Virus record (IMG/VR): IMGVR_UViG_3300020161_000951
Span: 1 to 35,171 of that record
Length of the DNA: 35,171 nucleotides
Reading direction: 5' to 3' (one strand)
DNA from: a virus
Lineage: Duplodnaviria; Caudoviricetes
Shown here piece by piece: positions 2,923 to 23,440 of the stretch; within the stretch, counting starts at the first letter, position 1, and every line of letters begins with the position of its first letter. Under the pieces are notes generated by a model. The model ran no database searches. It was not told the DNA's origin and was given only the letters and a program-made list of their open reading frames with translations. The translations under genes and the position numbers were made by a program.

Positions 2923-3579
2923 ATGATCCCAAAAATTATTTGGCAAACATATGAGCTAGATTATGATGATTTGCGGTATGACTATAGAATGGCCTCACTA
3001 ACCTGGAAAAATTTAAATCCAGACTGGGAATATAGGTATTGTAATGCAGAAGCAAGAAAAATACACGTAAAAGAATATAGCGATGAGCTTTACTACTATT
3101 ATGAATATTTAAGCCCAATAAACAAGGCAGATATTTGGAGATTATGCGTTTTATACACATACGGTGGCCTATATACTGATATGGACTCTGTTTGTCAAAA
3201 CCCCATTGATCAGGTTTTTAGGAATAACATTAAAAGTAATAATTTTATACTTGGCCCTCAAATAAAAGATGGCATGGCGCCTAATGGGACAATGGCTTCT
3301 TTAGGACAATCTGATACAATAAAAAAAATAATTGATGATTTGCTAATAAGAATAAAAGATGAGTTTGTAAGAAATGGCAATGTAGTAAATGTTACTTTTT
3401 TTGAATTTGCTGCTATAGTTAAAAAATATAACGAAGAAATTGATTTTAATTTATTATCAGCATTGCACGGATATCATGAAAGAGACTGCTACTCATACAC
3501 TTCAGATTTTGATGTTTATTGGAATAACGAATATATAAAATATTCTGATTTAGCAAAACAAAATAATTGGATTTTCTAA
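2923..3579 (+). CDS. GT32/OCH1-like glycosyltransferase (DXD sugar-binding family)
   Basis: MIPKIIWQT N-terminus and DIWRLCVLYTYGGLYTDMD signature. Confidence 0.9.
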   Translation: MIPKIIWQTYELDYDDLRYDYRMASLTWKNLNPDWEYRYCNAEARKIHVKEYSDELYYYYEYLSPINKADIWRLCVLYTYGGLYTDMDSVCQNPIDQVFRNNIKSNNFILGPQIKDGMAPNGTMASLGQSDTIKKIIDDLLIRIKDEFVRNGNVVNVTFFEFAAIVKKYNEEIDFNLLSALHGYHERDCYSYTSDFDVYWNNEYIKYSDLAKQNNWIF

Positions 3580-6155: not shown

Positions 6156-6944
6156 ATGGCAGTTGAGAGTATTGGAACCCTAGTTCCAACAAAAATTCCA
6201 GGGTATACAGATGCCGCTGATATTCAAGCAGCACTACGTGCCTATCACTATGGGTCATATACATTTGATACCGCAGAAACCAATAAAGCAAACTTAATTA
6301 ACCCATCTATAGCATATACACTCAATAGTCTTCAAGATCAGATTACAGCAGTTGACATTACTACAGCAGTTGCAAAGTCTGCTTTTAATGCTAAGGGAGA
6401 TCTTCTTAGCGCATCTGCAAACGATACACCACTTATATTAACTGCAGGCGCAAATGGAAGAATATTAACTACAAATAGCGCCACAGCAACAGGACTTGAA
6501 TGGTCAGATTCTTTAACATCTCCAAACCTAACATTATCTACAACATCTTCTACAACAGATGCAAGAATTTCCTGGGATACAACAAATAAAAAGATTCAAG
6601 TAGGAAATGGAACGGCAGCAATAGATTTTGCCACATCAACATTAGTTATAAATGCTCAAGCAGCATCTTACACTTTAGTATTAACAGATAAAGATAAATT
6701 AGTAGAAATAAGCAATGCTTCTGCTAACAACTTAACTGTCCCATTAAACTCATCAGTTGCATATCCAATTGGATCTCAAATTAATATTTTACAAACTGGT
6801 GTTGGTCAAACAACCGTTGTGGCAACTGGTGGGGTAACTATAAATGCAACACCAGGACTAAAATTAAGAGCACAATGGTCATCTGCTACATTAATTAAAC
6901 GTGCAGAAAATACTTGGGTTCTTATTGGAGATTTGATTGCATAA
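6156..6944 (+). CDS. tail-fibre-like protein
   Basis: Thr/Ala/Ser-rich; AKGDLL module shared with 16339; C-terminal ...WVLIGDL domain; RBS GAGGTG; TGATATAAT at 6130-6138. Confidence 0.75.
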   Translation: MAVESIGTLVPTKIPGYTDAADIQAALRAYHYGSYTFDTAETNKANLINPSIAYTLNSLQDQITAVDITTAVAKSAFNAKGDLLSASANDTPLILTAGANGRILTTNSATATGLEWSDSLTSPNLTLSTTSSTTDARISWDTTNKKIQVGNGTAAIDFATSTLVINAQAASYTLVLTDKDKLVEISNASANNLTVPLNSSVAYPIGSQINILQTGVGQTTVVATGGVTINATPGLKLRAQWSSATLIKRAENTWVLIGDLIA

Positions 6945-7408
6945 TGCCAATAATTCCAGGGGTATCAGCATCGTCTGATGGACGTCAACCGACAGCTCCA
7001 ACAATAGGAACTGCAACTGCTGGCAACGCTTCTGCAAGTGTTCCTTTTACAAATCCATCATATTTAGGAAAGCCATCAACCAATAATATATATGTAGCAA
7101 TTTCTTCTCCAGGATCAGTTACAGCTTCTTCTGCTACTTCTCCAATATCTGTTACAGGATTAACAAATGGAACTGCCTATACATTTACAGTAACAGCACA
7201 AACAAGAAATACTGACAATAGTGTCATTGCAACATCAGCAGCATCATCAGCATCTGATTCTGTTACTCCAGTAGCCCCACCATTCTTCCCATTCTTCCCA
7301 CCTTCATTCCCATTCTTCCCACCATTCTTCCCATTCTTCCCGTTCTTCCCGTTCTTCCCATTTTTCCCACCGTTCTTCCCATACTTTGCACCATTCTTTG
7401 GATTCTAA
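6944..7408 (+). CDS. fibronectin type III protein with a 43-aa C-terminal Pro/Phe repeat tail
   Basis: Start MPIIPG by TAATG coupling; VTGLTNGTAYTFTVTA FN3 motif; (P)PFF repeats ending FFGF. Confidence 0.85.
   Translation: MPIIPGVSASSDGRQPTAPTIGTATAGNASASVPFTNPSYLGKPSTNNIYVAISSPGSVTASSATSPISVTGLTNGTAYTFTVTAQTRNTDNSVIATSAASSASDSVTPVAPPFFPFFPPSFPFFPPFFPFFPFFPFFPFFPPFFPYFAPFFGF
7277..7405 (+). repeat. coding tandem repeat, 9/12-nt units CCRTTCTTC / CCACCRTTCTTC
   Basis: Encodes 16 Pro and 23 Phe in 43 codons. Confidence 0.95.
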
Positions 7409-7459
7409 AAACTTTATTAAATTTTAGGTTTGTGGTATGATTATACAAAGGGGGTATTT

Positions 7460-8176
7460 ATGAATGATGAAAATTCAAATCACTGGTTTACAAAGGATAG
7501 ATCTGAAACATCAAGCAATAGAATAGTTAAAAAGTCACTAGACAATGGGGTATTGGTTGAAAATTTAGCATTAGGTGTCAATGCTTATCAAAATGTATTT
7601 TCATTAGAAGATTCTAAAAGATATATAAATACTCTTGAGTCAAATTTAAGCCAAGACAAAAAATATAATTGGTCGGAAGCACAAGTGACAAACTCTACAA
7701 CTCCAATTAAAAAAGCAAGAGACTGTGTAGATTTTAAATATAAACAAGAAAATTTAGGACCAAGGGATGAAAATAATTCAGAGCTTATAGATCTTCATCA
7801 AGAAATATATGAAAAACTAAAATATTGCGTAGATGACTATGCTGCATATTGGGGAATAAATGTAATATATTACGAAGCATTTAATTTTGTTAAATATGAG
7901 GGGGAAGGTTCTCACTTCAATATTCATGCAGACCATGGGCCAGCATATAATTGCACCGTATCAGCCGTAGTCTATATTAACGATGACTACGAAGGCGGAG
8001 AGTTAAAATTTCCAAGGTTAGATAATCTTGTCTATAAGCCAAAAGTTGGAGACATAGTGCTTTGCCCTTCAAATTATATCTATGAACATGCATCACTGCC
8101 AATAAAATCAGGAACAAAGTATTGTGTTGTAATAATGACAGATATAAATGAATTAGGTCATAAACATAATGGTTAA
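7460..8176 (+). CDS. 2OG-Fe(II) dioxygenase, prolyl-4-hydroxylase-like (1)
   Basis: HAD...YINDDYEGGE...YEH...GTKY; start moved to ATG 7460 (RBS AGGGGG, TGGTATGAT at 7433-7441). Confidence 0.9.
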   Translation: MNDENSNHWFTKDRSETSSNRIVKKSLDNGVLVENLALGVNAYQNVFSLEDSKRYINTLESNLSQDKKYNWSEAQVTNSTTPIKKARDCVDFKYKQENLGPRDENNSELIDLHQEIYEKLKYCVDDYAAYWGINVIYYEAFNFVKYEGEGSHFNIHADHGPAYNCTVSAVVYINDDYEGGELKFPRLDNLVYKPKVGDIVLCPSNYIYEHASLPIKSGTKYCVVIMTDINELGHKHNG

Positions 8177-8960
8177 TAAGTCTGATGTATCTTTAAATTT
8201 AATTAAATTTATATCTTATAGGCCATGGCTAAATAAAGAAAGTGTATCGGCTCCAAGTCCAACTAAAAATTCTATTCCTGAATGGTATAAAAAGGCCGAT
8301 AGGTTTGCCAAAAATCCTATTACAAATGAATACTGGAATGCTCCATCAACAATATGTCCATTTCCGAAAGAGGGAACAGAAAATGATTATGGAAAGATCC
8401 CAACTTGGAAAGCGTGTCCAGCTATTTTGGATGGGTTTACAAGTGGATATATATTAAAAACACCCTGTGACATTACTTTTTTTAAAAATGATAGTGGAAC
8501 TATTGATGTTAAAATATTAGATTCCAGATATCAAGATTTTTGTGGAAAAAGACCTCCAATGCCCCAATTTGAACATCCATATGGATTCTATAAAGATCAT
8601 TTTGCCTGGTATCCAGATTGGGCTATAGATTTACCAAAAGGATATAGTGCTATTTTTATGTCTCCAATGAATAGGTTTGATCTTCCATTTTTAAATACAA
8701 CTGGTGTTGTTGATGTAGATAGCGTTAACTTGTTAGGAACATTTCCATTCTTTATTCCAGAAGGTTGGGAAGGAACTATTCCTGCAGGAACACCATATAT
8801 GCAAATCTTGCCTTTTAAAAGAGAAAATTGGCAACAAGAAATACATATTCAACAAGAAAAAGAAATTTATGATAAAATGGTAGAGAACATGAAGTTTTAT
8901 CGTCAACCAGACGGCGGTATCTATAAAAATAAAGTTTGGTCTAAAAGAGATTACAACTAG
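8169..8960 (+). CDS. uncharacterised DUF6065/dUTPase-fold-like protein (1)
   Basis: WKACPAILD...GY and IPAGTPYMQILP motifs parallel those in 9648. Confidence 0.6.
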   Translation: MVNKSDVSLNLIKFISYRPWLNKESVSAPSPTKNSIPEWYKKADRFAKNPITNEYWNAPSTICPFPKEGTENDYGKIPTWKACPAILDGFTSGYILKTPCDITFFKNDSGTIDVKILDSRYQDFCGKRPPMPQFEHPYGFYKDHFAWYPDWAIDLPKGYSAIFMSPMNRFDLPFLNTTGVVDVDSVNLLGTFPFFIPEGWEGTIPAGTPYMQILPFKRENWQQEIHIQQEKEIYDKMVENMKFYRQPDGGIYKNKVWSKRDYN

Positions 8961-8970
8961 GGGGAACAAA

Positions 8971-9648
8971 ATGCAAACTTGGACAGAAAAAAAAGATTTA
9001 GGTAATGGAATTTTTTTATACAAAAATGTTATAAAAAAAGAATTTGATGTTATAAATAGATTAGAAAATACTTTAGGAGAACTTGCCCCAGTTGGAGAAT
9101 TATCCAAAGATGGAAATAAATACCACTGGATGCCAGCATATGTAGGATATAAAGAACTTATGCCACTATACAGAGACTGCTCCGATTTTAAATTTAAAAA
9201 GACTGATATACAACAAGATTCAGATCCAGCCTCTATAGCTCTTCAAGCACTTTGGCAAGATGTTTATGATGCACAATTCCACGCAGTTGAAGATTATAGA
9301 GCACAGCATAACATTATGGATTTAAAATATTGGGAAGCTTTTAATTTTATTAAATATGGTCCAGGACAACATTTCCAAGAACATCATGATCATGGATTTT
9401 CATATAATTGCACAGTTTCGTTAGTAGCTTATGTAAATGATGACTATGAGGGTGGAGAGCTGTATTTTAGACTTCAAAATTTAAGTGTTAAACCAGAGGC
9501 TGGGGACTTGTTTATCTTTCCTTCCAATTTTATGTATCCACATAGAGCAATGCCAGTTCATTCTGGAACAAAATATTCTATTGTCACTATGTTAGATTAT
9601 AATAAAAAATTTCACACTCCAGAAATGTATCGTGAAGACGAAGACTAA
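8971..9648 (+). CDS. 2OG-Fe(II) dioxygenase, prolyl-4-hydroxylase-like (2)
   Basis: HHD...YVNDDYEGGE...YPH...GTKY; close paralog of 7460. Confidence 0.9.
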   Translation: MQTWTEKKDLGNGIFLYKNVIKKEFDVINRLENTLGELAPVGELSKDGNKYHWMPAYVGYKELMPLYRDCSDFKFKKTDIQQDSDPASIALQALWQDVYDAQFHAVEDYRAQHNIMDLKYWEAFNFIKYGPGQHFQEHHDHGFSYNCTVSLVAYVNDDYEGGELYFRLQNLSVKPEAGDLFIFPSNFMYPHRAMPVHSGTKYSIVTMLDYNKKFHTPEMYREDED

Positions 9649-10376
9649 TGCTTAATATATCAATTGAAAAAAAACCAGAGTCTGTAATAAATATATCTCC
9701 AATGTCTATAAAAAGAGATTGGATGGATTTAACTCCAGAAAAACATGCCTATAGGTGTTTTCCAGTTACTCAAGCCAATATGATTGGCTGGAGTTTATCT
9801 TGCACAGAAGACATAGAGTTTGTTTGGAACGGAGTAAATGATACAGGTTCTGAAAATATTAATATTCTTAGTAAAAAAGATTTCTTATATACAGGAAGAG
9901 GTCAGGCAACAGTAAGCATAGTTACTGGATTAATATTTAGAACTGATGAAAATATCAGTATGTTTACTATAACTCCTGTTAACTATTTTGATGACAATTT
10001 TGAGGTTGTGTCATCTTTGATTAGCACTTCTTGGCTTGATACTGATTTTCCATTAGCAATAAAAGCAAAAACTGCAAACAAAAATATTTTAATTAAAGCT
10101 AACACTCCTATTGCACAGGTTGTTCCAATATCGCTTACTCAAATGAACAATACTTCAATTGATATTATTGATTTTTCTGATCCAGGACAAAAAAGACAAG
10201 AAAGCATAAAGTCTTATGGAGAAGAAGCACAAAAAATAAATTCAAAAGGAGAATGGACAGACTGGTATAGAGATGCTGTAAATGAAAAAAGAGAAACTGT
10301 TGGAAAGCATGAAGCAAAGGTTTTAAAACTTTCTGTTACAGATAATACTAAAAATGGAACCAATGGTATAATTTAA
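9648..10376 (+). CDS. DUF6065-like protein (2)
   Basis: RDWMD...HAYRCFPVTQAN..GW motif; IKANTPIAQVVP. Confidence 0.7.
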   Translation: MLNISIEKKPESVINISPMSIKRDWMDLTPEKHAYRCFPVTQANMIGWSLSCTEDIEFVWNGVNDTGSENINILSKKDFLYTGRGQATVSIVTGLIFRTDENISMFTITPVNYFDDNFEVVSSLISTSWLDTDFPLAIKAKTANKNILIKANTPIAQVVPISLTQMNNTSIDIIDFSDPGQKRQESIKSYGEEAQKINSKGEWTDWYRDAVNEKRETVGKHEAKVLKLSVTDNTKNGTNGII

Positions 10377-10378
10377 TT

Positions 10379-11050
10379 ATGGCTGACTTAGATAATGTTG
10401 TAACTAGAAAACCTTCCAAAACACCTTCTGGCTGGTTTGGTAGTGGAAAAGAAATGATTGTTGAGTTAGAGAATTTTATGACTCAAGATGAAATAGACTT
10501 TTTAGAAAAAGCTGCAAAATCTATAACAATTTGGGATGTAACAGAAAGTCATGTTAATGAAAATGGAACAGTCATATATGATTCAGACTATTGGAAAGAT
10601 AGAGTTGCTACTACTCCAAGTTTAAATAAAAATGATCCAAAAATAGCACCAGTTATTGCAAATTTATTTAAAAGACTAGAACCAATCATTGAAGATTTTT
10701 ATAAAGTTAAAGTTATTCCAACTGGAGCAACAATAGTAAAATGGCTTCCAGGACAGTATCAGCACCCTCACGCAGATAAAGAACTACATGAAGGTCCAGA
10801 TGCTGGATTGCCGAATGATTTTCCAAACTATGATCTTTCAAGTTTATTCTATTTAAATGAAGACTATGAAGGTGGAGAGCTGTATTTTCCAAATCAAGGT
10901 GTTCAATTTAAACCAAAAGTAGGTGCTGCTTACTTTTTCCCAGGTGATATGCATTATATTCATGGAGTGACTGAAATAAAAAGTGGTATAAGATTTACTT
11001 GCCCATTCTTCTGGGAAATTACAGAGCATACTGGAGATAAAAAACCATGA
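10379..11050 (+). CDS. 2OG-Fe(II) dioxygenase (3)
   Basis: HAD...YLNEDYEGGE...YIHGV...GIRF; leaderless promoter TGGTATAAT at 10364-10372. Confidence 0.9.
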   Translation: MADLDNVVTRKPSKTPSGWFGSGKEMIVELENFMTQDEIDFLEKAAKSITIWDVTESHVNENGTVIYDSDYWKDRVATTPSLNKNDPKIAPVIANLFKRLEPIIEDFYKVKVIPTGATIVKWLPGQYQHPHADKELHEGPDAGLPNDFPNYDLSSLFYLNEDYEGGELYFPNQGVQFKPKVGAAYFFPGDMHYIHGVTEIKSGIRFTCPFFWEITEHTGDKKP

Positions 11051-11796
11051 ATCTAAATAATAAAAAAAGAATTAATGAAGATTTGGTTGTCTACGAAAAT
11101 TTTTTAACTGCCGAAGAGTCAGCTAAAATTATTTTAGCATTAGAAAAACAAGCAGAAAATCAAAAGATTTCATGGACCCCTATATCTTTTTACGAATCAT
11201 ATTCTTCAGTATTGCCACAAGATAATGATCCAGAACTAGAAGAATTTGGATTAACTCCAACTATATTTTCAGATATTAAAAGTGGAATAATTAAAGCTGT
11301 AGCATCTGTCCATGACACCCCTGAAGAAAAAATTTCTCAAATAGGATATCATACACAAAAATGGGAACCAGGAGCTTTTGCCCGAATTCATTCAGATAAC
11401 ACAGATGAGCATGGAAATTTTGGAGCATTTGAAAGAAGTAGATATGCTGCATTTTTATATTTAAATGATGATTTTGATGGCGGACTATTAAAGTTTCCAG
11501 ATAGGGATGTTGAATTATCTCCAAAGGTTGGAATGCTGGCAGCATTTAACGGTAGCCACAACAACATGCATGAGGTAAGTATAATAACTAAAGGCATTAG
11601 GTATACATTGGGATCTTTTTGGGATGATAGAGAAGAGTCAGACTATCCAGAAGAGTTGAGAACTGCATGGAAAGAAGAGATGGACAAAGTTAGGGCTGCT
11701 CAAAAAATTGAAAAAGAAGAATGGCAAAATCTTCTTAAAGAAGGATATAAGTTGGATGAAAATGGAAATAAATATAGCATAGAAGAGTTAAAATAA
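11047..11796 (+). CDS. 2OG-Fe(II) dioxygenase (4)
   Basis: HSD...YLNDDFDGG...NMHEV...GIRY. Confidence 0.9.
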   Translation: MNLNNKKRINEDLVVYENFLTAEESAKIILALEKQAENQKISWTPISFYESYSSVLPQDNDPELEEFGLTPTIFSDIKSGIIKAVASVHDTPEEKISQIGYHTQKWEPGAFARIHSDNTDEHGNFGAFERSRYAAFLYLNDDFDGGLLKFPDRDVELSPKVGMLAAFNGSHNNMHEVSIITKGIRYTLGSFWDDREESDYPEELRTAWKEEMDKVRAAQKIEKEEWQNLLKEGYKLDENGNKYSIEELK

Positions 11797-11797
11797 T

Positions 11798-12457
11798 ATG
11801 GGTGCTTTTTTAGAAAAAGAACTAAATGAAAACAATTTTGAAATAAAAAAAATAGATGACAATATTATATTGGTAGAAAATTTTATTTCTAAAGAAGAAA
11901 TAGAAGATATTTTTAGCCTTATAAATAGTATTGGCGAAGAAGATTGGCGTATAGAATATTTAGGAAATTTAAAAAACTTTTGTCTTGAAAAATTTGGAAG
12001 AGATGATGTTGAAAATTTAGTAGCAGAAGGTAAATTTGAAATTACTCAAAACTGGGAAGATAAAAATTTTAACATACTTAATACTGAAATTCAACTCAAA
12101 ATTTATAAAAGATTGGGAGATCTTGTAAAAAACGCAGATCAGTCATTAGATCTTAGTGGTTTTGCAACTATTCAAAGAATGCAAGAAGGGGTAGAGCTAA
12201 AACCACATACCGACCAAGATACAGACCCATCCATTAGACATGCTGCAATTCTTTATTTAAATGAAGACTATTCAAAAGGAGAGATTTTCTTTTCTAACCA
12301 CAACATAGAATTAAGACCAAAACCAGGATCACTTCTTTTATTTCCAGGAACAAAAGACTATAATCACGGAGTAAGGCATGTTGGTCCAGGACCAATTAGA
12401 TATGTTCTGGTAGGTTTTATAAAGGTTAAGAATTTTTATGAAAACAATAAATACTAA
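11798..12457 (+). CDS. 2OG-Fe(II) dioxygenase (5)
   Basis: HTD...YLNEDYSKGE...YNHGV...PIRY. Confidence 0.9.
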   Translation: MGAFLEKELNENNFEIKKIDDNIILVENFISKEEIEDIFSLINSIGEEDWRIEYLGNLKNFCLEKFGRDDVENLVAEGKFEITQNWEDKNFNILNTEIQLKIYKRLGDLVKNADQSLDLSGFATIQRMQEGVELKPHTDQDTDPSIRHAAILYLNEDYSKGEIFFSNHNIELRPKPGSLLLFPGTKDYNHGVRHVGPGPIRYVLVGFIKVKNFYENNKY

Positions 12458-12469
12458 AGAGGAGATAAA

Positions 12470-13174
12470 ATGAACAAAGAGATCCTAGAAGAAAAAGTAT
12501 ACTATTATCCAGATGGCGTAAAAAATTTTACAGAACTAATGTCAACTATAGACCAAGTTGATTTAATTGAAAATGAAAGCCAATCTTCTTTATGGTTAGA
12601 CTGGACAGCATCTAACGATAAAAGTTTTATTTATGGTGTAACCAAAACGTTTGATCTAAATCAAATTAATACTTTAGAAGAGCCTTTAAAAAGCAAAATG
12701 GCTTTTATTTATAATACAGTTACAGAATCTTTTTATGACGTATGTAAAGACTATGCAGAGGCAATGGGAGATAACGATGAGCCAAAACTTTTTCCTACCT
12801 TTAATATTAAAAAATATCAAGCGGGAATTGGAATGGGATCACATTATGATCAACTAGATGGAGATAAAACTTTGCGATATTCTTTAGTTATGTATCTTAA
12901 TGATGATTTTGAGGGGGGAGAAATTTCTTTTGTTATGTCTCCATATGAAGATGTTCGTTCAGCGCCATCCCCAAGTCTTGATTATGATATAGCCTTGGCT
13001 AATAATGAAATTGCATTTGGTGTTAAACCAAAAGCTGGAAGTATAATTATATTTCCTTCTTCCGCACCTTATTATCATACTGCACACATTGTAAAAACAG
13101 GATTTAAATATATGGTTCCAGGTCATTGGATACATAATGATATGTCATGGAATAACAAACAAGAAACAATGTAA
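12470..13174 (+). CDS. 2OG-Fe(II) dioxygenase (6)
   Basis: HYD...YLNDDFEGGE...YYHTA...GFKY; RBS GAGGAG. Confidence 0.9.
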   Translation: MNKEILEEKVYYYPDGVKNFTELMSTIDQVDLIENESQSSLWLDWTASNDKSFIYGVTKTFDLNQINTLEEPLKSKMAFIYNTVTESFYDVCKDYAEAMGDNDEPKLFPTFNIKKYQAGIGMGSHYDQLDGDKTLRYSLVMYLNDDFEGGEISFVMSPYEDVRSAPSPSLDYDIALANNEIAFGVKPKAGSIIIFPSSAPYYHTAHIVKTGFKYMVPGHWIHNDMSWNNKQETM

Positions 13175-13177
13175 ATA

Positions 13178-13846
13178 GTGAAAACTGCCATAGTAACTGG
13201 AGCAAGTAAAGGCGTTGGACATGCTACAGTAAAGTTTTTATCTGAAAATGGATATAGGGTTATTGCTGTTTCTAGAAATTTATCTAAATTAAAAGAATTA
13301 ATATCGGATAATGTTGAAACATATCAACTAGACATTACAAATGAAAACCAAATAAAATCTTTTTTTGAAAAATATAAAGACATTACGCTAGACCTTTTAG
13401 TTAATAATGCTGGTGGTGGTTCAAACCCTAAAAATATTATACAAGAAACTATGGAAAATTTTAGGATTGCTTATGATATTAATGTTTCGGGACCAATGTA
13501 TCTTTCTCAACTTTTTGTTCCATGTATGCAAAGATCAGTATCACCAACAATTATTTTTGTAACTTCTATAGGTGGCAATGTCCCATATCCTGGGGGAGGT
13601 AATTATACAAATGCCAAAAGAGGTGAAATTGGGTTATTAGAAACTATGAGAATAGAGTTTCCATCATACAACATAAAAATTACTGAAATTTGTCCTGGAA
13701 CAATTGATACTCAATCAGAAAAAAAGGACAATGCATTGACGGCAGAAGATCTTGCTCAGTCTATTCTTTGGGTATCTTCATTGCCAAGTCATTTTAATGT
13801 AAATAGCATAAATGTTAGTCATATAAATAATTCTACATTTAGATAA
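13178..13846 (+). CDS. short-chain dehydrogenase/reductase (classical SDR)
   Basis: TGASKGVG, NNAG, catalytic S...YTNAK, PG motif; GTG start. Confidence 0.9.
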   Translation: MKTAIVTGASKGVGHATVKFLSENGYRVIAVSRNLSKLKELISDNVETYQLDITNENQIKSFFEKYKDITLDLLVNNAGGGSNPKNIIQETMENFRIAYDINVSGPMYLSQLFVPCMQRSVSPTIIFVTSIGGNVPYPGGGNYTNAKRGEIGLLETMRIEFPSYNIKITEICPGTIDTQSEKKDNALTAEDLAQSILWVSSLPSHFNVNSINVSHINNSTFR

Positions 13847-13853
13847 AAATAAA

Positions 13854-13875
13854 ACCCCCTAAATAAATAGGGGGT
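13854..13875. terminator. hairpin terminator between convergent genes
   Basis: ACCCCCTA-AATAAA-TAGGGGGT flanked by A/T tracts. Confidence 0.75.
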
Positions 13876-13891
13876 AATATTAATATTTTAT

Positions 13892-14467
13892 TTAAGCATA
13901 TTTGTTAGGAAACTTTGCTAACCATTTCTTAACAGGCGGAGTCTTGGCATATTTCCAAGATTTCCAATTTGTTCCACCTTGAGTCATAGCGTAAACAATT
14001 TCAGCATTTCTTACGGGGCTCATTAATTCTCCGTGATACTTAATGCCATACTTTTCTCTACGGTCTGGTCCAAGTTCCCCAATCATATTAATTTGAAATA
14101 ACCCATAGGAGTTATCACCAGTTTTAATGTTTCCGTTATATCTAATTGGTTGCCCATTAGATTCAGCCTTAGCTACCGCCCAAGCGGTCTTTAATCCATT
14201 ACCTCTAAAACCAACAGCCTTTAATAGATCAACTAGTTGACGATCAGTTAGTCTGTCTGCATTTTGATATTTTTTTAGTGCTATTTGATTTCTAACCTTA
14301 GAAACCAAAAATGCCCCTTTGGGGGCAGGATCAACAGATTTAACCGACGGTTTACTTAGTAAATTATTTTCAACTGTAACACTTATAGCATTAGCAGAAT
14401 TACTTATAGGTGCGAGCAATCCAACTATAGATAGGATTCCAATCCAAGCTTTCTTGTCTCTTCTCAT
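13892..14467 (-). CDS. secreted lysozyme-like / SLT-domain lytic transglycosylase
   Basis: Signal-peptide-like N-terminus; catalytic AES motif; SYGLFQINM; RBS GGAGG; minus-strand TGTTATACT at 14525-14517. Confidence 0.85.
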   Translation of the reverse strand: MRRDKKAWIGILSIVGLLAPISNSANAISVTVENNLLSKPSVKSVDPAPKGAFLVSKVRNQIALKKYQNADRLTDRQLVDLLKAVGFRGNGLKTAWAVAKAESNGQPIRYNGNIKTGDNSYGLFQINMIGELGPDRREKYGIKYHGELMSPVRNAEIVYAMTQGGTNWKSWKYAKTPPVKKWLAKFPNKYA

Positions 14468-20465: not shown

Positions 20466-21245
20466 ATGCCTATTATTGGTGGTAGAGGAGCTGGTGTAAG
20501 AGGTCTTGGATTTCAGGGTGCAGGAAAGCCTAACGCTCCAGTAAGCGTATCTGCAACAGATGCTGGAACTGGACGTGCATTCAATAATGGATCAGCAAGT
20601 GTATCTTTCTCATCAGGTGGATCAAATGGTGCACCGATTACATCCTTTACAGTTATTTCTTCTCCTGGATCCTATACAGCATCTGGTGCAACATCACCAT
20701 TAACTGTAACAGGATTACAATCTAATACTGCCTATACCTTTACAGTAACAGCAACAAACTCAGTTGGAACTTCAGATGCCTCTAGTGCATCTAGTTCTAT
20801 AACAGCAACCACTGTTCCAGCAACTCCAGCAGCTCCAACCGTAACAACAGCAGCTCTTGCAGATACTGTTACTTGGGTTGCTCCAGCAACTGGTGGAAGC
20901 GCTATTACTGGATACACATGGGCTTCTTCTGATAGTAAAACTGGAACAGTTAGCGGAGCAACTCTATCTGTTGTTGTTACTCAAGAAGCAAACACTTCAC
21001 AAACATATACTGTTTATGCTACCAATGCTAATGGTAATTCTGTAACTTCATCTGCTTCTGGCAGTGTTACAACACCACCGTTCTTCCCACCGTTCTTCCC
21101 ATTCTTTCCACCGTTCTTTCCACCGTTCTTCCCATTCTTTCCATTCTTCCCGTTCTTCCCGTTCTTCCCACCTTCATTCCCGTTCTTCCCACCGTTCTTC
21201 CCACCTTCATTCCCGTTCTTCCCACCTAGATTTGGTGGATTCTAA
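20466..21245 (+). CDS. two-FN3-domain protein with a 56-aa C-terminal Pro/Phe repeat tail
   Basis: MPIIGG start; two FN3 repeats (GGSAITGY, YTFTVTATN); tail ending RFGGF. Confidence 0.85.
   Translation: MPIIGGRGAGVRGLGFQGAGKPNAPVSVSATDAGTGRAFNNGSASVSFSSGGSNGAPITSFTVISSPGSYTASGATSPLTVTGLQSNTAYTFTVTATNSVGTSDASSASSSITATTVPATPAAPTVTTAALADTVTWVAPATGGSAITGYTWASSDSKTGTVSGATLSVVVTQEANTSQTYTVYATNANGNSVTSSASGSVTTPPFFPPFFPFFPPFFPPFFPFFPFFPFFPFFPPSFPFFPPFFPPSFPFFPPRFGGF
21075..21242 (+). repeat. coding tandem repeat, 9/12-nt PFF/PPFF/PPSF units
   Basis: Encodes 23 Pro and 28 Phe in 56 codons. Confidence 0.95.
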
Positions 21246-21409: not shown

Positions 21410-23440
21410 ATGTCAGAAGTTTTTTCGTTTCGTCTATCAGAAGATTTTGTAAATAAATATAATAATATCCCAGCACCATTTGGATTTTCAGATGCAGGAT
21501 CTAACTCGTTGGGAGAAATTACTTTTATTAGAACATATTCTCGCATGAAAGAGGATGGAACAAAAGAGCGTTGGCATGAAGTTTGTCGCCGTGTAATTGA
21601 GGGTATGTATTCAGTTCAAAAAAATCATGCTAAAGATAATCGTTTACCTTGGAATGATAACAAAGCACAGAAGTCTGCTCAAGAAGCTTTTCAAAGAATG
21701 TTTGAATTAAAATGGACACCTCCAGGACGTGGGCTATGGGCATTTGGAACTCCTATGACTATGGAAAAGCGCAACTCCGCATCCCTTCAAAATTGTGCAA
21801 TGGTATCCACTCGTGATATTGATCGTAATGATCCAGGAGCCCTTTTTGCTTGGGTAATGGATGCTTTAATGTTAGGTATAGGTGTAGGGTTTGATACTAT
21901 TGGGCAAGATAAAAATATGCCTATTTATGGACCTACAGAACCAGAAAATGTTTGGGATATTCCAGATACCCGTGAGGGCTGGGTAGATTCAGTTAGAATG
22001 CTACTTAATTCATACCTACGTCCAAACCAATCTATTCAAAAGTTTAACTATGACCTTATCCGTCCACTAGGAGCCCCCATTAAGGGCTTTGGTGGCATTG
22101 CTAGCGGTCCAGCACCTTTGATTGCACTACATGACAAGATCAATAATGTAGTAGGCGCTAGAGCTGGAGAAACACTTGATTCTAGAGCTATTGTCGATAT
22201 CGTAAATCTTATTGGAACATGTGTTGTTTCTGGAAATGTTCGTCGTTCTGCTACCCTGGCACTTGGCTCTCCAGGAGATGATACTTTTATCAATCTTAAA
22301 AATCCTGAAGTATTCCCAGAAAGAAATTCATATGATCCAGATAAACCAGGATGGGCATGGATGAGTAACAACTCTATTGCTGCTGAGGTTGGAACAAAAT
22401 ATGAAGACTATGTAGATTTAATTGCAGATAATGGTGAGCCAGGTTTTATTTGGCTTGATGTTGCTAGAAACTTTGGTCGTCTTGCAGATCCTGCAGATGG
22501 AAAAGACTCTAGAGTTATGGGATTTAATCCTTGTGCAGAGCAGCCATTAGAGTCATACGAATTATGCACACTTGTAGAAGTTCATTTAAATCGCCATGAA
22601 TCTAAGGAAGATTTTCTTAAGACATTAAAGTTTGCATACCTATATGGTAAAACTGTAACTCTTCTTCCAACACATTGGCAACAGACAAACGGTATTATGC
22701 AACGTAACCGTAGAATTGGAACATCACTTACTGGTATTGCATCATTTGCAGATGAGAATGGTTTGCCAACTGTTCGTGAATGGATGGATGAAGGATATCA
22801 AAAGATTCGTCACTACGATCATGAATATTCTGAGTGGCTATGTGTTCGTGAATCAATTCGTGTAACAACAGTAAAGCCATCAGGCTCTGTCTCACTTCTT
22901 TCTGGTGCGACTCCTGGAGTTCACTGGGGTCCTGGAGGAGAGTTTTATCTCCGTGCTATTCGTTTTGGTAATACTGATCCTATGCTTTATTTATTTAAAG
23001 CAGCGGGATATAAAATTGAAGATGACTTAGTATCAGCAAATACTTCAGTAATATATTTTCCAATAGCATCAGGACATAAACGTTCTGAAAAAGAAGTTAG
23101 CCTATTTGAAAAGATTGGTCTAGCAGCAACTGCTCAAAAGTATTGGTCAGATAATGGTGTCTCTGTAACTCTTTCATTTGACAAAGAAGAAGAGACTAAA
23201 TTTATTGCTCCAGCTCTTAATATGTATGAGGGACAACTAAAGGCAGTTTCATTCCTTCCAATGGGCAATAAAACTTATCCACAACAACCTTATACCGAGA
23301 TTACTCGTGAAGAGTATAATTCTCATGTAGGTAAAATTGGTAAGATTGACTGGTCTGCTATTTATGATGGAGTAGAAAATCTTGAGGCTGCTGGAGAAGC
23401 ATATTGCTCTACAGATGCCTGTGAAATTAAATTATATTAA
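21410..23440 (+). CDS. nrdJ: class II adenosylcobalamin-dependent ribonucleotide reductase (monomeric RTPR type)
   Basis: PPGRGL, LQNC, GNVRRSA, NPCAEQ thiyl-radical loop, TTVKPSG, C-terminal CSTDAC redox pair. Confidence 0.95.
   Translation: MSEVFSFRLSEDFVNKYNNIPAPFGFSDAGSNSLGEITFIRTYSRMKEDGTKERWHEVCRRVIEGMYSVQKNHAKDNRLPWNDNKAQKSAQEAFQRMFELKWTPPGRGLWAFGTPMTMEKRNSASLQNCAMVSTRDIDRNDPGALFAWVMDALMLGIGVGFDTIGQDKNMPIYGPTEPENVWDIPDTREGWVDSVRMLLNSYLRPNQSIQKFNYDLIRPLGAPIKGFGGIASGPAPLIALHDKINNVVGARAGETLDSRAIVDIVNLIGTCVVSGNVRRSATLALGSPGDDTFINLKNPEVFPERNSYDPDKPGWAWMSNNSIAAEVGTKYEDYVDLIADNGEPGFIWLDVARNFGRLADPADGKDSRVMGFNPCAEQPLESYELCTLVEVHLNRHESKEDFLKTLKFAYLYGKTVTLLPTHWQQTNGIMQRNRRIGTSLTGIASFADENGLPTVREWMDEGYQKIRHYDHEYSEWLCVRESIRVTTVKPSGSVSLLSGATPGVHWGPGGEFYLRAIRFGNTDPMLYLFKAAGYKIEDDLVSANTSVIYFPIASGHKRSEKEVSLFEKIGLAATAQKYWSDNGVSVTLSFDKEEETKFIAPALNMYEGQLKAVSFLPMGNKTYPQQPYTEITREEYNSHVGKIGKIDWSAIYDGVENLEAAGEAYCSTDACEIKLY

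What the first reader, a model, noticed from the sequence alone, without database searches (positions are those of the whole stretch)
6944..13846. Candidate phage post-translational modification system: PFF-repeat substrate gene followed by six 2OG-Fe(II) hydroxylases, two DUF6065-like proteins and an SDR
Seen: an FN3 gene whose last 43 residues are 16 Pro plus 23 Phe is followed within 52 nt by nine tightly packed co-directional enzyme genes closed by a terminator. All six dioxygenases keep the HxD...H iron triad and the YLNDDYEGGE-type motif. Three have Lys and three Arg at the putative 2OG-binding position, which suggests different specificities. Established: this family includes peptidyl-prolyl hydroxylases, and a repetitive core peptide next to a row of tailoring enzymes is the layout of RiPP gene clusters. 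Inference: the cluster is not a set of metabolic auxiliary genes. It may instead hydroxylate or further oxidise Pro/Phe in the tail of a virion-displayed protein, with the SDR doing a subsequent redox step, giving a chemically tailored adhesin tip or a released peptide.
Basis: partly seen in the sequence, partly recalled or inferred. Interest (0 to 1): 0.92.

Follow-up and report, generated by a model that had tools for sequence, protein, structure and literature searches.

The report
Phage Pro-Phe fibre with oxygenase battery
An uncultured lake phage encodes two fibre-region proteins ending in almost pure proline-phenylalanine repeats, plus six iron oxygenases that come and go with such repeats across related phages, so the enzymes likely decorate the phage's own fibres chemically, though no chemistry has been shown.

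Summary
Observation confirmed: an FN3 gene with a 43-residue Pro/Phe tail precedes six intact 2OG-Fe(II) oxygenases, two dUTPase-fold (DUF6065-type) proteins and an SDR in a freshwater tailed phage. In 50 contigs sampled by an unrelated core gene, repeat and cassette co-occur (20 both, 20 neither; the 10 mismatches are repeat variants or cut contigs; 6 of 6 independent pairs agree after my exclusions). The cassette has changed genomic slot at least six times, staying behind such a repeat. Sister phages pair other proline repeats with oxygenases (21 of 21 slots; 6 of 56 without repeat), often with a GlcNAc-transferase of the hydroxyproline/mucin type. The repeat is usually an internal stalk before a variable tip, so it is not a RiPP core. 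Best reading (0.62): oxidative tailoring of fibre stalks, probably starting at proline. Against: two canonical prolyl-4-hydroxylase residues are missing, linkage explains part of the pattern, and no chemistry exists. The array type was described in 2010 without this substrate. This scan found the module before on other DNA.

The parts
6156..6944 (+). virion/minor tail-type gene overlapping the FN3 gene's start by 1 nt (context, slot 1)
   Evidence: PHROG 8780 minor tail protein E 2e-22, PHROG 18179 virion structural protein; gap -1
6944..7408 (+). FN3a: one FN3 domain plus Pro/Phe run; candidate substrate
   Evidence: ESM Atlas nearest clusters are viral fn3 proteins
7277..7405 (+). 43-codon (P)PFF run, 16 Pro + 23 Phe; 20 of 23 Phe codons TTC
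7433..7441 (+). TGGTATGAT promoter-like motif (extended -10 type, label recalled) 27 nt before OX1; same class precedes structural genes
   Evidence: 12 of 27 plus-strand matches lie 10-40 nt before a start; 0.86 expected; present near OX1 in 72 of 123 relatives
7460..8176 (+). OX1: P4H-like 2OG-Fe(II) oxygenase, H156-D158-H210, K220; paralogue of OX2
   Evidence: dN/dS 0.05-0.08
8169..8960 (+). DUFa: dUTPase-fold protein (PHROG 7084) with invariant Trp39, Lys81, Cys83, Asp182, Asp184
8971..9648 (+). OX2: P4H-like oxygenase, H138-D140-H191, K201; nearest solved relatives are bacterial and chlorovirus prolyl 4-hydroxylases
9648..10376 (+). DUFb: DUF6065 protein, dUTPase fold, invariant Cys37; acidic residues at the dUTPase motif-III position replaced by Ser/Thr
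10364..10372 (+). TGGTATAAT promoter-like motif 15 nt before OX3
   Evidence: near OX3 in 124 of 143 relatives
10379..11050 (+). OX3: oxygenase, H131-D133-H195, R205; in 61 of 61 closed cassettes
11047..11796 (+). OX4: oxygenase, H115-D117-H175, R185; weak hit to RiPP oxygenase model YhhC (25 bits, cut-off 150)
11798..12457 (+). OX5: oxygenase, H137-D139-H190, R201
12470..13174 (+). OX6: oxygenase, H125-D127-H203, K213
13178..13846 (+). classical short-chain dehydrogenase, S130-Y143-K147 invariant in 55 relatives; optional member
13854..13875 (.). hairpin between the cassette and the convergent lysozyme-like gene; called as minus-strand terminator
20466..21245 (+). FN3b: second FN3 protein with a 56-residue Pro/Phe tail (21075-21242), behind tail-fibre-like genes, no cassette behind it; candidate substrate in trans

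Best explanation
The Pro/Phe run is a conserved, protein-selected segment of fibre-region proteins, and the cassette is likely a dedicated tailoring system that would oxidise it before or during virion assembly. Shown: the anatomy, intact active sites, strict PFF/PPFF grammar, tight co-occurrence, movement of the cassette between repeat-bearing genes, and a shared promoter-like motif with structural genes. Inferred steps: (1) FN3a and FN3b are virion-displayed, the run forming an extended stalk that ends the fibre or carries a variable tip; (2) unit A (OX1, DUFa, OX2, DUFb), whose relatives also serve other proline repeats, hydroxylates prolines, with the dUTPase-fold Cys proteins as helper subunits; (3) unit B (OX3-OX6, optional SDR), seen as a set only with Pro/Phe repeats, makes further oxidations, plausibly on Phe or on the first products, taking the place that glycosyltransferases take in sister modules; (4) the result is a stiffer, less hydrophobic or receptor-tuned fibre stalk. 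The enzymes would act in trans on every such run in the genome.
For: Co-occurrence: 67 of 80 loci fetched by the repeat alone have OX1/OX2 within 3.5 kb downstream, 7 are too short, 6 not adjacent; 57 of 80 loci fetched by DUFb have the repeat upstream, 21 are cut, 2 show none in the 1.5-1.7 kb seen. 50 contigs sampled through core gene 15877: 20 both, 20 neither, 4 repeat only, 6 cassette only; independent pairs 6 of 6 concordant, p 0.031 after dropping 9 cut contigs and counting 5 repeat variants as repeats; with all 50 rows and the strict pattern a mean 6.7 same, 0 opposite, 3.3 no difference of 10 pairs. Beyond linkage: at least 6 slot changes and 5 gene orders on the cassette's tree of 54 rows; the sister phage L159 keeps both FN3 genes (93% and 80% identical) but has its cassette behind the other one; runs inside unrelated long fibre proteins sit in contigs whose cassette lies over 30 kb away. 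Generality: slot 1 holds an oxygenase in 21 of 21 cases with another proline repeat, 6 of 56 without; OX1+OX2 form a 98-support clade with oxygenases behind (FPPP)n, (PNF)n and (PGFAVD)n, and a 95-support clade behind (PT)n/(PVT)n/(PAV)n lies in the same unresolved 92-support group; PF11397 GlcNAc-transferases follow several; in L216 the repeat has no Ser/Thr, and GT60 Gnt1 needs hydroxyproline (PMC6939170 passage). Protein-level selection: aromatic runs of length 3 occur 2 times in 189 runs versus 856 after shuffling. Nearest solved relatives of OX1/OX2 are peptidyl-prolyl hydroxylases (E 4.5e-10; chlorovirus P4H 9e-6). Purifying selection, dN/dS 0.03-0.16 against L081.
Against: No chemistry, expression or virion data. 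OX1/OX2 keep the P4H Glu (H-16), Tyr (H-9) and Lys but carry Phe for the H-3 Tyr, Cys/Ala for the Arg that binds the target proline's carbonyl and Met for the Trp; none of the six has that Arg or Trp in register (against PMC7948501 section 6). Hydroxyproline was not detected in PBCV-1 virions although that virus has a P4H (PMC7019647 passage). Physical linkage and recombination through the repeat DNA can produce much of the adjacency. GT60 also acts on Thr (PMC8724618 passage) and L502 has a Thr-rich fibre with the transferase and no oxygenase in the slot. DUFa-like genes occur alone in repeat-free relatives. One 38-kb contig of another phage group (L267, 26% complete) has a run and no cassette. 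Counts include near-identical contigs; fragments cannot prove absence; my exclusions were made after seeing the data. Six oxygenases for a two-residue repeat are more than proline hydroxylation needs.
Confidence: 0.62

Rival explanations
1. The cassette is a host-directed or metabolic island (secondary metabolite, host-surface or 2OG-balance functions) that rides in the hypervariable fibre slots; the repeat DNA is merely the crossover point by which tips and cassettes are exchanged.
For: Iyer et al. proposed secondary-metabolite synthesis for the Syn9 array (PMC2938197 section 12); cyanophage oxygenases are usually read as metabolic genes (PMC9602691 passages). The slots also hold IMPDH, radical SAM, sulfotransferase, methyltransferase and epimerase genes. 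The cassette has its own promoter-like motifs.
Against: Loss of either part should leave the other behind, yet no contig with both slots visible has the run without the cassette. Repeats with different DNA (PT, PVT, PNF, FPPP) pair with oxygenases too. The run obeys a protein-level grammar.
Confidence: 0.15
2. The cassette helps to make the repeat protein rather than decorate it: it acts on translation components (tRNA, elongation factors, ribosome) or on nucleotides, or chaperones the hydrophobic run.
For: Both DUF proteins have the dUTPase fold and DUFa keeps two invariant Asp at the motif-III position. The run is rich in Pro-Pro and uses TTC for 5692 of 6298 Phe codons against 11 of 109 in the cassette genes. 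A bacterial DUF6065 follows a polyproline autotransporter.
Against: Oxygenases also follow (PT)n and (AVTP)n repeats that lack Pro-Pro; transferases of a protein-glycosylating family follow them; DUFb has lost the acidic motif-III residues; TTC bias is explained by avoiding U runs (inference).
Confidence: 0.12
3. RiPP-like system: FN3 is a leader and the modified Pro/Phe peptide (or its Cys-rich tip) is cut off and released.
For: Precursor-then-enzymes layout; 69 of 186 tips are short Cys-rich peptides, 19 Hint-like and 13 begin like an S74 chaperone (Hint hits below cut-off; S74 label recalled); OX4 has a weak hit to YhhC.
Against: No protease or exporter in the window's cassette nor a recurring unlabelled gene in relatives' maps; no conserved cleavage-like motif before the run; run embedded in proteins up to 1561 aa and followed by FN3-type domains; Hint/S74 cleavage would leave the run on the fibre.
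Confidence: 0.07
4. The run is a Phe/Pro-sensing leader (attenuator) that controls the downstream genes.
For: Phe-rich run ends 51 nt before OX1.
Against: Often separated from the next gene by hundreds of codons of tip; no stable structure in the gap (z +1.1); a promoter-like motif lies in the gap; orphan copies exist.
Confidence: 0.02

Closest known systems
Tandem dioxygenase array of Synechococcus phage Syn9 (Iyer, Abhiman, de Souza, Aravind 2010, PMC2938197; passages and section 12 read)
   Same: Phage array of several distinct 2OG-Fe(II) dioxygenases with a dUTPase-fold protein bearing a conserved Cys (here).
   Different: Syn9 has a JmjC gene and two halogenases, none here; the paper proposes secondary metabolites for the phage array and names no fibre substrate; it proposes collagen-like and tail-collar proteins as substrates only for bacterial beta-hydroxylase/sulfotransferase operons. 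Its supplement was not read.
Chlorovirus PBCV-1 prolyl 4-hydroxylase (PDB 5c5t) and Bacillus P4H (PDB 3itq/5hv0)
   Same: Nearest solved relatives of OX1/OX2; same iron triad and Lys; viral P4H acts on Pro-containing peptides (PMC7019647 passage).
   Different: One enzyme versus six; Arg and Trp of the peptide groove not kept here; hydroxyproline was not found in PBCV-1 virions.
Skp1 PhyA + Gnt1 (CAZy GT60) hydroxyproline glycosylation of Dictyostelium/Toxoplasma (PMC6939170, PMC8724618; passages read)
   Same: Sister phage modules place a P4H-like gene and a PF11397 GlcNAc-transferase behind a proline-repeat gene. Equating PF11397 with GT60 is recalled, not tested.
   Different: The window's cassette has no such transferase; the protist target is one proline of a cytoplasmic protein.
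Modified virion proteins of mycobacteriophages: capsid glycans of Che8/Rita (as cited in PMC11256854, passages) and host-made tail methylation (PMC13445384, abstract)
   Same: Actinobacteriophage virion proteins can be modified, and a tail modification can decide adsorption.
   Different: Glycosylation or methylation, not oxidation; no repeat substrate; the methylase is a host enzyme.

Membership tests
2OG-Fe(II) dioxygenase, PF13640 | Pfam hit above cut-off; HxD...H triad; basic 2OG-binding residue | tested here: met
   all six, 34.8-56.8 bits vs 27; triad and Lys/Arg kept in 116-117 of 117, 129/129, 129/129, 96/96, 84/84, 60/60 orthologues
Canonical peptidyl prolyl 4-hydroxylase | Lys for 2OG, Glu at H-16, Tyr at H-9 | tested here: met
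   met in OX1 and OX2 only (OX1 offsets shifted by a one-residue insertion)
Canonical peptidyl prolyl 4-hydroxylase | Tyr at H-3, Arg binding the target proline carbonyl, Trp six residues after the Lys | tested here: not met
   OX1/OX2 have Phe, Cys(Ala), Met; OX3-OX6 lack all three in register
Canonical peptidyl prolyl 4-hydroxylase | forms 4-hydroxyproline in peptides | not testable with these tools
   needs an assay
Trimeric dUTPase | beta-clip dUTPase fold | tested here: met
   models pLDDT 94; all top Foldseek hits are dUTPases, best E 7e-5 (DUFb) and 4e-4 (DUFa), 9-16% identity
Trimeric dUTPase | five catalytic sequence motifs (motif definitions recalled) | tested here: not met
   no sequence hit below E 0.1 to solved dUTPases; DUFb has Ser/Thr at the motif-III acids; P-x-N replaces the motif-II Arg-Ser; DUFa keeps two Asp
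Trimeric dUTPase | trimer and dUTP hydrolysis | not tested
   no complex prediction could be run; activity needs an assay
RiPP biosynthetic gene cluster | precursor gene next to tailoring enzymes | tested here: met
RiPP biosynthetic gene cluster | short precursor with conserved leader/cleavage site, and a protease or exporter | tested here: not met
Syn9-type phage tandem dioxygenase array | tandem distinct dioxygenases plus dUTPase-fold Cys protein | tested here: met
Syn9-type phage tandem dioxygenase array | JmjC member and tryptophan halogenases | tested here: not met
   none among the window's scanned proteins

The most novel reading that the evidence does not exclude
Freshwater phages run a combinatorial post-translational system on low-complexity fibre stalks: a proline-repeat code (PFF, FPPP, PNF, PT, PVT) read by matched oxygenase sets, in which the Pro/Phe version converts a designed PFF/PPFF polymer into a multiply oxidised (hydroxyproline plus oxidised or cross-linked Phe) material, with DUF6065 as a new class of oxygenase partner; many phage 'auxiliary metabolic' 2OG oxygenases would then be virion-tailoring enzymes.
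Probability: 0.35. Interest if true: 0.9.

Novelty: new variant of a known kind. Interest (0 to 1): 0.74.

Why it matters
2OG-Fe(II) oxygenases are among the commonest accessory genes of aquatic phages and are counted as metabolic genes although their function has not been tested (PMC9602691 passages). This module names a concrete, genetically tied candidate substrate of 154 residues, so one co-expression and mass-spectrometry experiment can test the question. The module is common: about 700 stored stretches of IMG/VR hold the repeat pattern (estimate) and 1375 DUFb relatives were found. If true it gives a new class of virion modification, a first function for DUF6065, and enzymes that oxidise Pro/Phe polymers.

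Tried and rejected
Complex prediction of OX2 with DUFb could not be run: the queue was full; binding is untested. No RNA holder listed among 20 runs; the six runs holding half or more of the words are freshwater/lake metagenomes of 2 studies. No cultured phage holds a DUFb relative; DUFa relatives in haloarchaeal viruses and S-RIM4 have no annotated oxygenase within 6-7 kb in the two records opened. In 185,579 prokaryote genomes the repeat pattern gave 5 short contigs, 4 of them visibly carrying the phage cassette: not a cellular system. Bacterial DUF6065: 16 of 199 sampled genomes (leaving out the phage contig and one unpublished genome); 3 of 16 loci examined had a proline-repeat secreted protein within 6 kb, 13 did not; a polyproline DNA pattern in 13 of 16 positive versus 15 of 32 negative genomes is confounded by size, GC and poly-Gly on the other strand: inconclusive. 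A both-slots-closed table (29 of 240 loci) was rejected as biased against long cassettes. No Rfam match in the window. Sigma-70 promoter and terminator counts are at shuffle level. Literature: DUF6065, 0 papers; phage + prolyl hydroxylase + tail fibre, 1 unrelated listing; searches listed nothing on this module; PPFFP gave 48 papers, of the 15 listed none on phages; one search did not retrieve a residue-level paper on the Bacillus enzyme. Only listings were seen for these; the library lacks most subscription journals.

Full report
Setting. The window is a whole 35,171-nt virus record of a tailed phage: portal 27447, prohead protease 29139, major capsid protein 30478, class II ribonucleotide reductase 21410. 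The capsid protein's best cultured matches are Streptomyces phages such as BillNye at 43%, which suggests an actinobacterial host (inference). The runs that hold half or more of the cassette's words are freshwater or lake metagenomes of two studies. The finding lies among tail and fibre-type genes (collagen-repeat gene 4406, minor-tail-like gene 6156, fibre-like genes 16339 and 18661).

Observation. Four corrections: only one DUF gene hits DUF6065 directly, the other is related by profile; the closing hairpin is called for the opposite strand; a second Pro/Phe-tail gene lies at 20466-21245; and a TG-N-TATAAT-like motif, which precedes many structural genes (12 of 27 matches lie 10-40 nt before a start, 0.86 expected), stands before OX1 and before OX3 (124 of 143 OX3 relatives, 72 of 123 OX1 relatives). 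The cassette is therefore probably two units expressed like virion genes (inference).

The repeat. In 189 distinct runs (median 55 residues, 17-153) Phe and Pro make up 97%; aromatic runs are 2 long in 3132 of 3266 cases and 3 long twice (856 after shuffling); Pro runs are 1 or 2 long, 3 long seven times (507 after shuffling) (runs were picked by a PFF-type pattern, which favours but does not force this). DNA slippage of TTC would make FFF, so the grammar is kept at protein level (inference). The run is often internal: of 186 distinct ends, 50 stop within 15 residues, 69 carry a Cys-rich tip, 19 a Hint-like domain, 13 an S74-chaperone-like start, 35 other sequence (Hint hits are below cut-off; the S74 label is recalled). 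It also sits in 959-, 1561- and 326-aa fibre-like proteins. It behaves as a stalk module, not a RiPP core.

Co-occurrence. Fetched by repeat alone (first 80 of 122 loci, the ones with flanks): 67 have OX1/OX2 within 3.5 kb downstream, 7 are too short, 6 are not adjacent; of these six, two have the cassette over 30 kb away in the same contig, one is a second window on a contig whose other locus is adjacent, two are short contigs lacking the other slot, and one (L267, 26% complete, another phage group) has none. Fetched by DUFb (80 of 518): 57 repeat upstream, 21 cut, 2 without in the little that is seen. For a sample blind to both traits I fetched 240 loci through core gene 15877, picked 55 contigs of about 27 kb or more by eye and searched 50 whole (five short or duplicate ones dropped): 20 have both, 20 neither, 4 only the pattern, 6 only the cassette (cassette = OX2-type and DUFb-type match below 1e-80). 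The four pattern-only contigs end inside or before a slot; four cassette-only contigs are one phage with (FPPP)n, one has a Tyr-rich variant, one starts inside the cassette. On a core-gene tree, 6 of 6 independent pairs agree (p 0.031) after dropping 9 cut contigs and scoring the 5 variants as repeats, choices made after seeing the data; with all 50 and the strict pattern a mean of 6.7 of 10 pairs agree, none oppose (median p 0.016). All records are fragments or linear contigs, so absence is not proven.

Is it only linkage? The cassette ends at the reductase gene in 34, at the lysozyme-like gene in 22 and elsewhere in 5 of 61 closed cases. On its own tree (54 of 139 rows after de-replication) the slot changes at least 6 times and the first five genes occur in five orders. 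L159 keeps FN3a (93%) and FN3b (80%) with their runs but has the cassette behind FN3b, the window behind FN3a. Orphan runs were seen only in contigs that hold a cassette or are cut. This fits action in trans. Recombination through the repeat DNA could also place cassettes behind runs, so the rival stays alive.

Sister modules. In slot 1 of the blind sample (90 distinct closed slots), other proline repeats have an oxygenase behind them in 21 of 21 cases, slots without a repeat in 6 of 56 (one of the six has an (AVTP)n repeat under my threshold), and PFF slots in 7 of 13, the rest being orphans; these rows are related, so the Fisher value overstates. Seven of the 21 also hold a PF11397 GlcNAc-transferase. 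In L216 the repeat is (PNF)n/(PPPNF)n without Ser or Thr and is followed by an OX1-like gene (41%), DUF6065, the transferase and a DUFa-like gene. GT60 Gnt1 transfers GlcNAc to hydroxyproline and depends on the prolyl hydroxylase (PMC6939170 passage); other GT60 enzymes start mucin-type chains on Ser/Thr (PMC8724618 passage), and L502, a Thr-rich fibre, has the transferase without an oxygenase. That PF11397 is GT60 is recalled. On a tree of 133 oxygenases (from 1313), OX1 and OX2 group (98) with the L216, L068 and (FPPP)n enzymes; the enzymes behind (PT)n/(PVT)n/(PAV)n form a 95 clade within the same open 92-support group. Proline is the one residue these repeats share.

The enzymes. Active sites are invariant in orthologues and dN/dS is 0.03-0.16. 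OX1, OX2, OX3 are in 61 of 61 closed cassettes (the first two by definition of the set), DUFa 59, DUFb 58, OX4 58, OX5 56, OX6 56, SDR 42; cassettes hold 5-10 oxygenases. The OX1/OX2 profile's best solved relatives are the Bacillus and chlorovirus prolyl 4-hydroxylases, then PKHD-type enzymes, P3H1 and lysyl hydroxylases. Against the residue list of PMC7948501 section 6, OX1/OX2 keep Glu, Tyr and Lys but have Phe for one Tyr, Cys for the proline-binding Arg and Met for the Trp; OX3-OX6 differ more, each with its own conserved residues. They are P4H-like, not canonical P4Hs. Lys versus Arg separates collagen-type from HIF-type enzymes in that paper, both of which act on proline, so it does not tell substrates apart. 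DUFa and DUFb fold as dUTPases (pLDDT 94) with an invariant Cys and without the usual motif set (motifs recalled). One bacterial DUF6065 is fused to a JmjC domain and one follows a polyproline autotransporter, but 13 of 16 bacterial loci show no proline repeat nearby, and lone DUFa-like genes follow repeat-free fibre genes. Their role is a guess.

Mechanism and comparison. I commit to oxidative tailoring of the fibre stalk, first at proline by unit A, then further by unit B (0.62). Shown are the anatomy and the genetic ties; virion location, substrate, products and benefit are inferred. Iyer et al. 2010 described the array type, with the dUTPase-fold Cys protein, in phage Syn9 and assigned it to secondary metabolism; for bacterial operons they predicted hydroxylation of collagen-like and tail-collar proteins (supplement not read, it may list further neighbourhoods). 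PBCV-1 is the viral precedent and the warning: its P4H works on peptides but hydroxyproline was not found in virions. My ten searches found no paper that links a Pro/Phe repeat to such a cassette. Earlier notes of this scan report the PFF module and the transferase variants on other genomes; they gave me the Syn9 and PBCV-1 leads, which I checked, and are not independent support. Verdict: real, new variant of a known kind, interest 0.74.

Noticed in passing
   Followed up: yes
window 3894, 5132, 6130, 14592, 15862, 18623, 23450, 27121, 29121, 31697: TG-N-TATAAT-like motif 10-40 nt before structural genes; likely the phage's main promoter class.
   Followed up: partly
window 13892-14467 (-): Lysozyme-like (PF18896) gene with an N-terminal signal-like stretch, convergent to the cassette and conserved between the two fibre slots.
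   Followed up: no
window 2923-3579: DXD glycosyltransferase (PF04488) upstream of the fibre genes; patchy in relatives.
   Followed up: no
window 21410-23440: Class II (B12-dependent) ribonucleotide reductase inside the virion gene block, conserved as the right border of slot 2.
   Followed up: no
L216 2326-6730; L068 9356-13412: (PNF)n or (PGFAVD)n fibre followed by OX1-like, DUF6065, PF11397 GlcNAc-transferase; cleanest test case for hydroxyproline-type glycosylation.
   Followed up: partly
L003 1871-2788, L078 9968-11266, L109 3068-4390, L141 3973-5286: Hint-like domains after the PFF run, some ending HNK, some lacking the terminal His-Asn; possible self-cleaving tips.
   Followed up: partly
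L024 5768-6193, L033 1731-2069, L216 2925-3314: Small 110-145 aa genes of no Pfam family (two of the three scanned) between Cys-rich-tipped fibre genes and the enzymes; possible tip partners or chaperones.
   Followed up: no
L442 3687-4253, L448 6644-7204, L024 7734-8282: A second ~190-aa family with HxD...H and no Pfam hit, frequent behind proline-repeat fibres; probably an unannotated 2OG oxygenase family.
   Followed up: partly
L009 11656-16273; L003 2820-4604: TylF-type methyltransferases, radical SAM/SPASM, sulfotransferase and IMPDH/GMP-reductase genes in the same slot behind PFF genes.
   Followed up: no
L237 7652-10531; L291 9691-14376; L267 5085-6065: PFF runs inserted in unrelated long fibre-like proteins at a third genomic site or in another phage group.
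   Followed up: partly
L517 6409-9690; L539 3446-9024: Bacterial DUF6065 directly behind a polyproline autotransporter (Sinorhizobium) and fused to a JmjC domain beside a (PT)n TPS protein.
   Followed up: partly
L033 1046-1689; L034; L060 3357-4300: FN3-PFF gene split by a frameshift in these contigs; assembly error or real break not examined.
   Followed up: no
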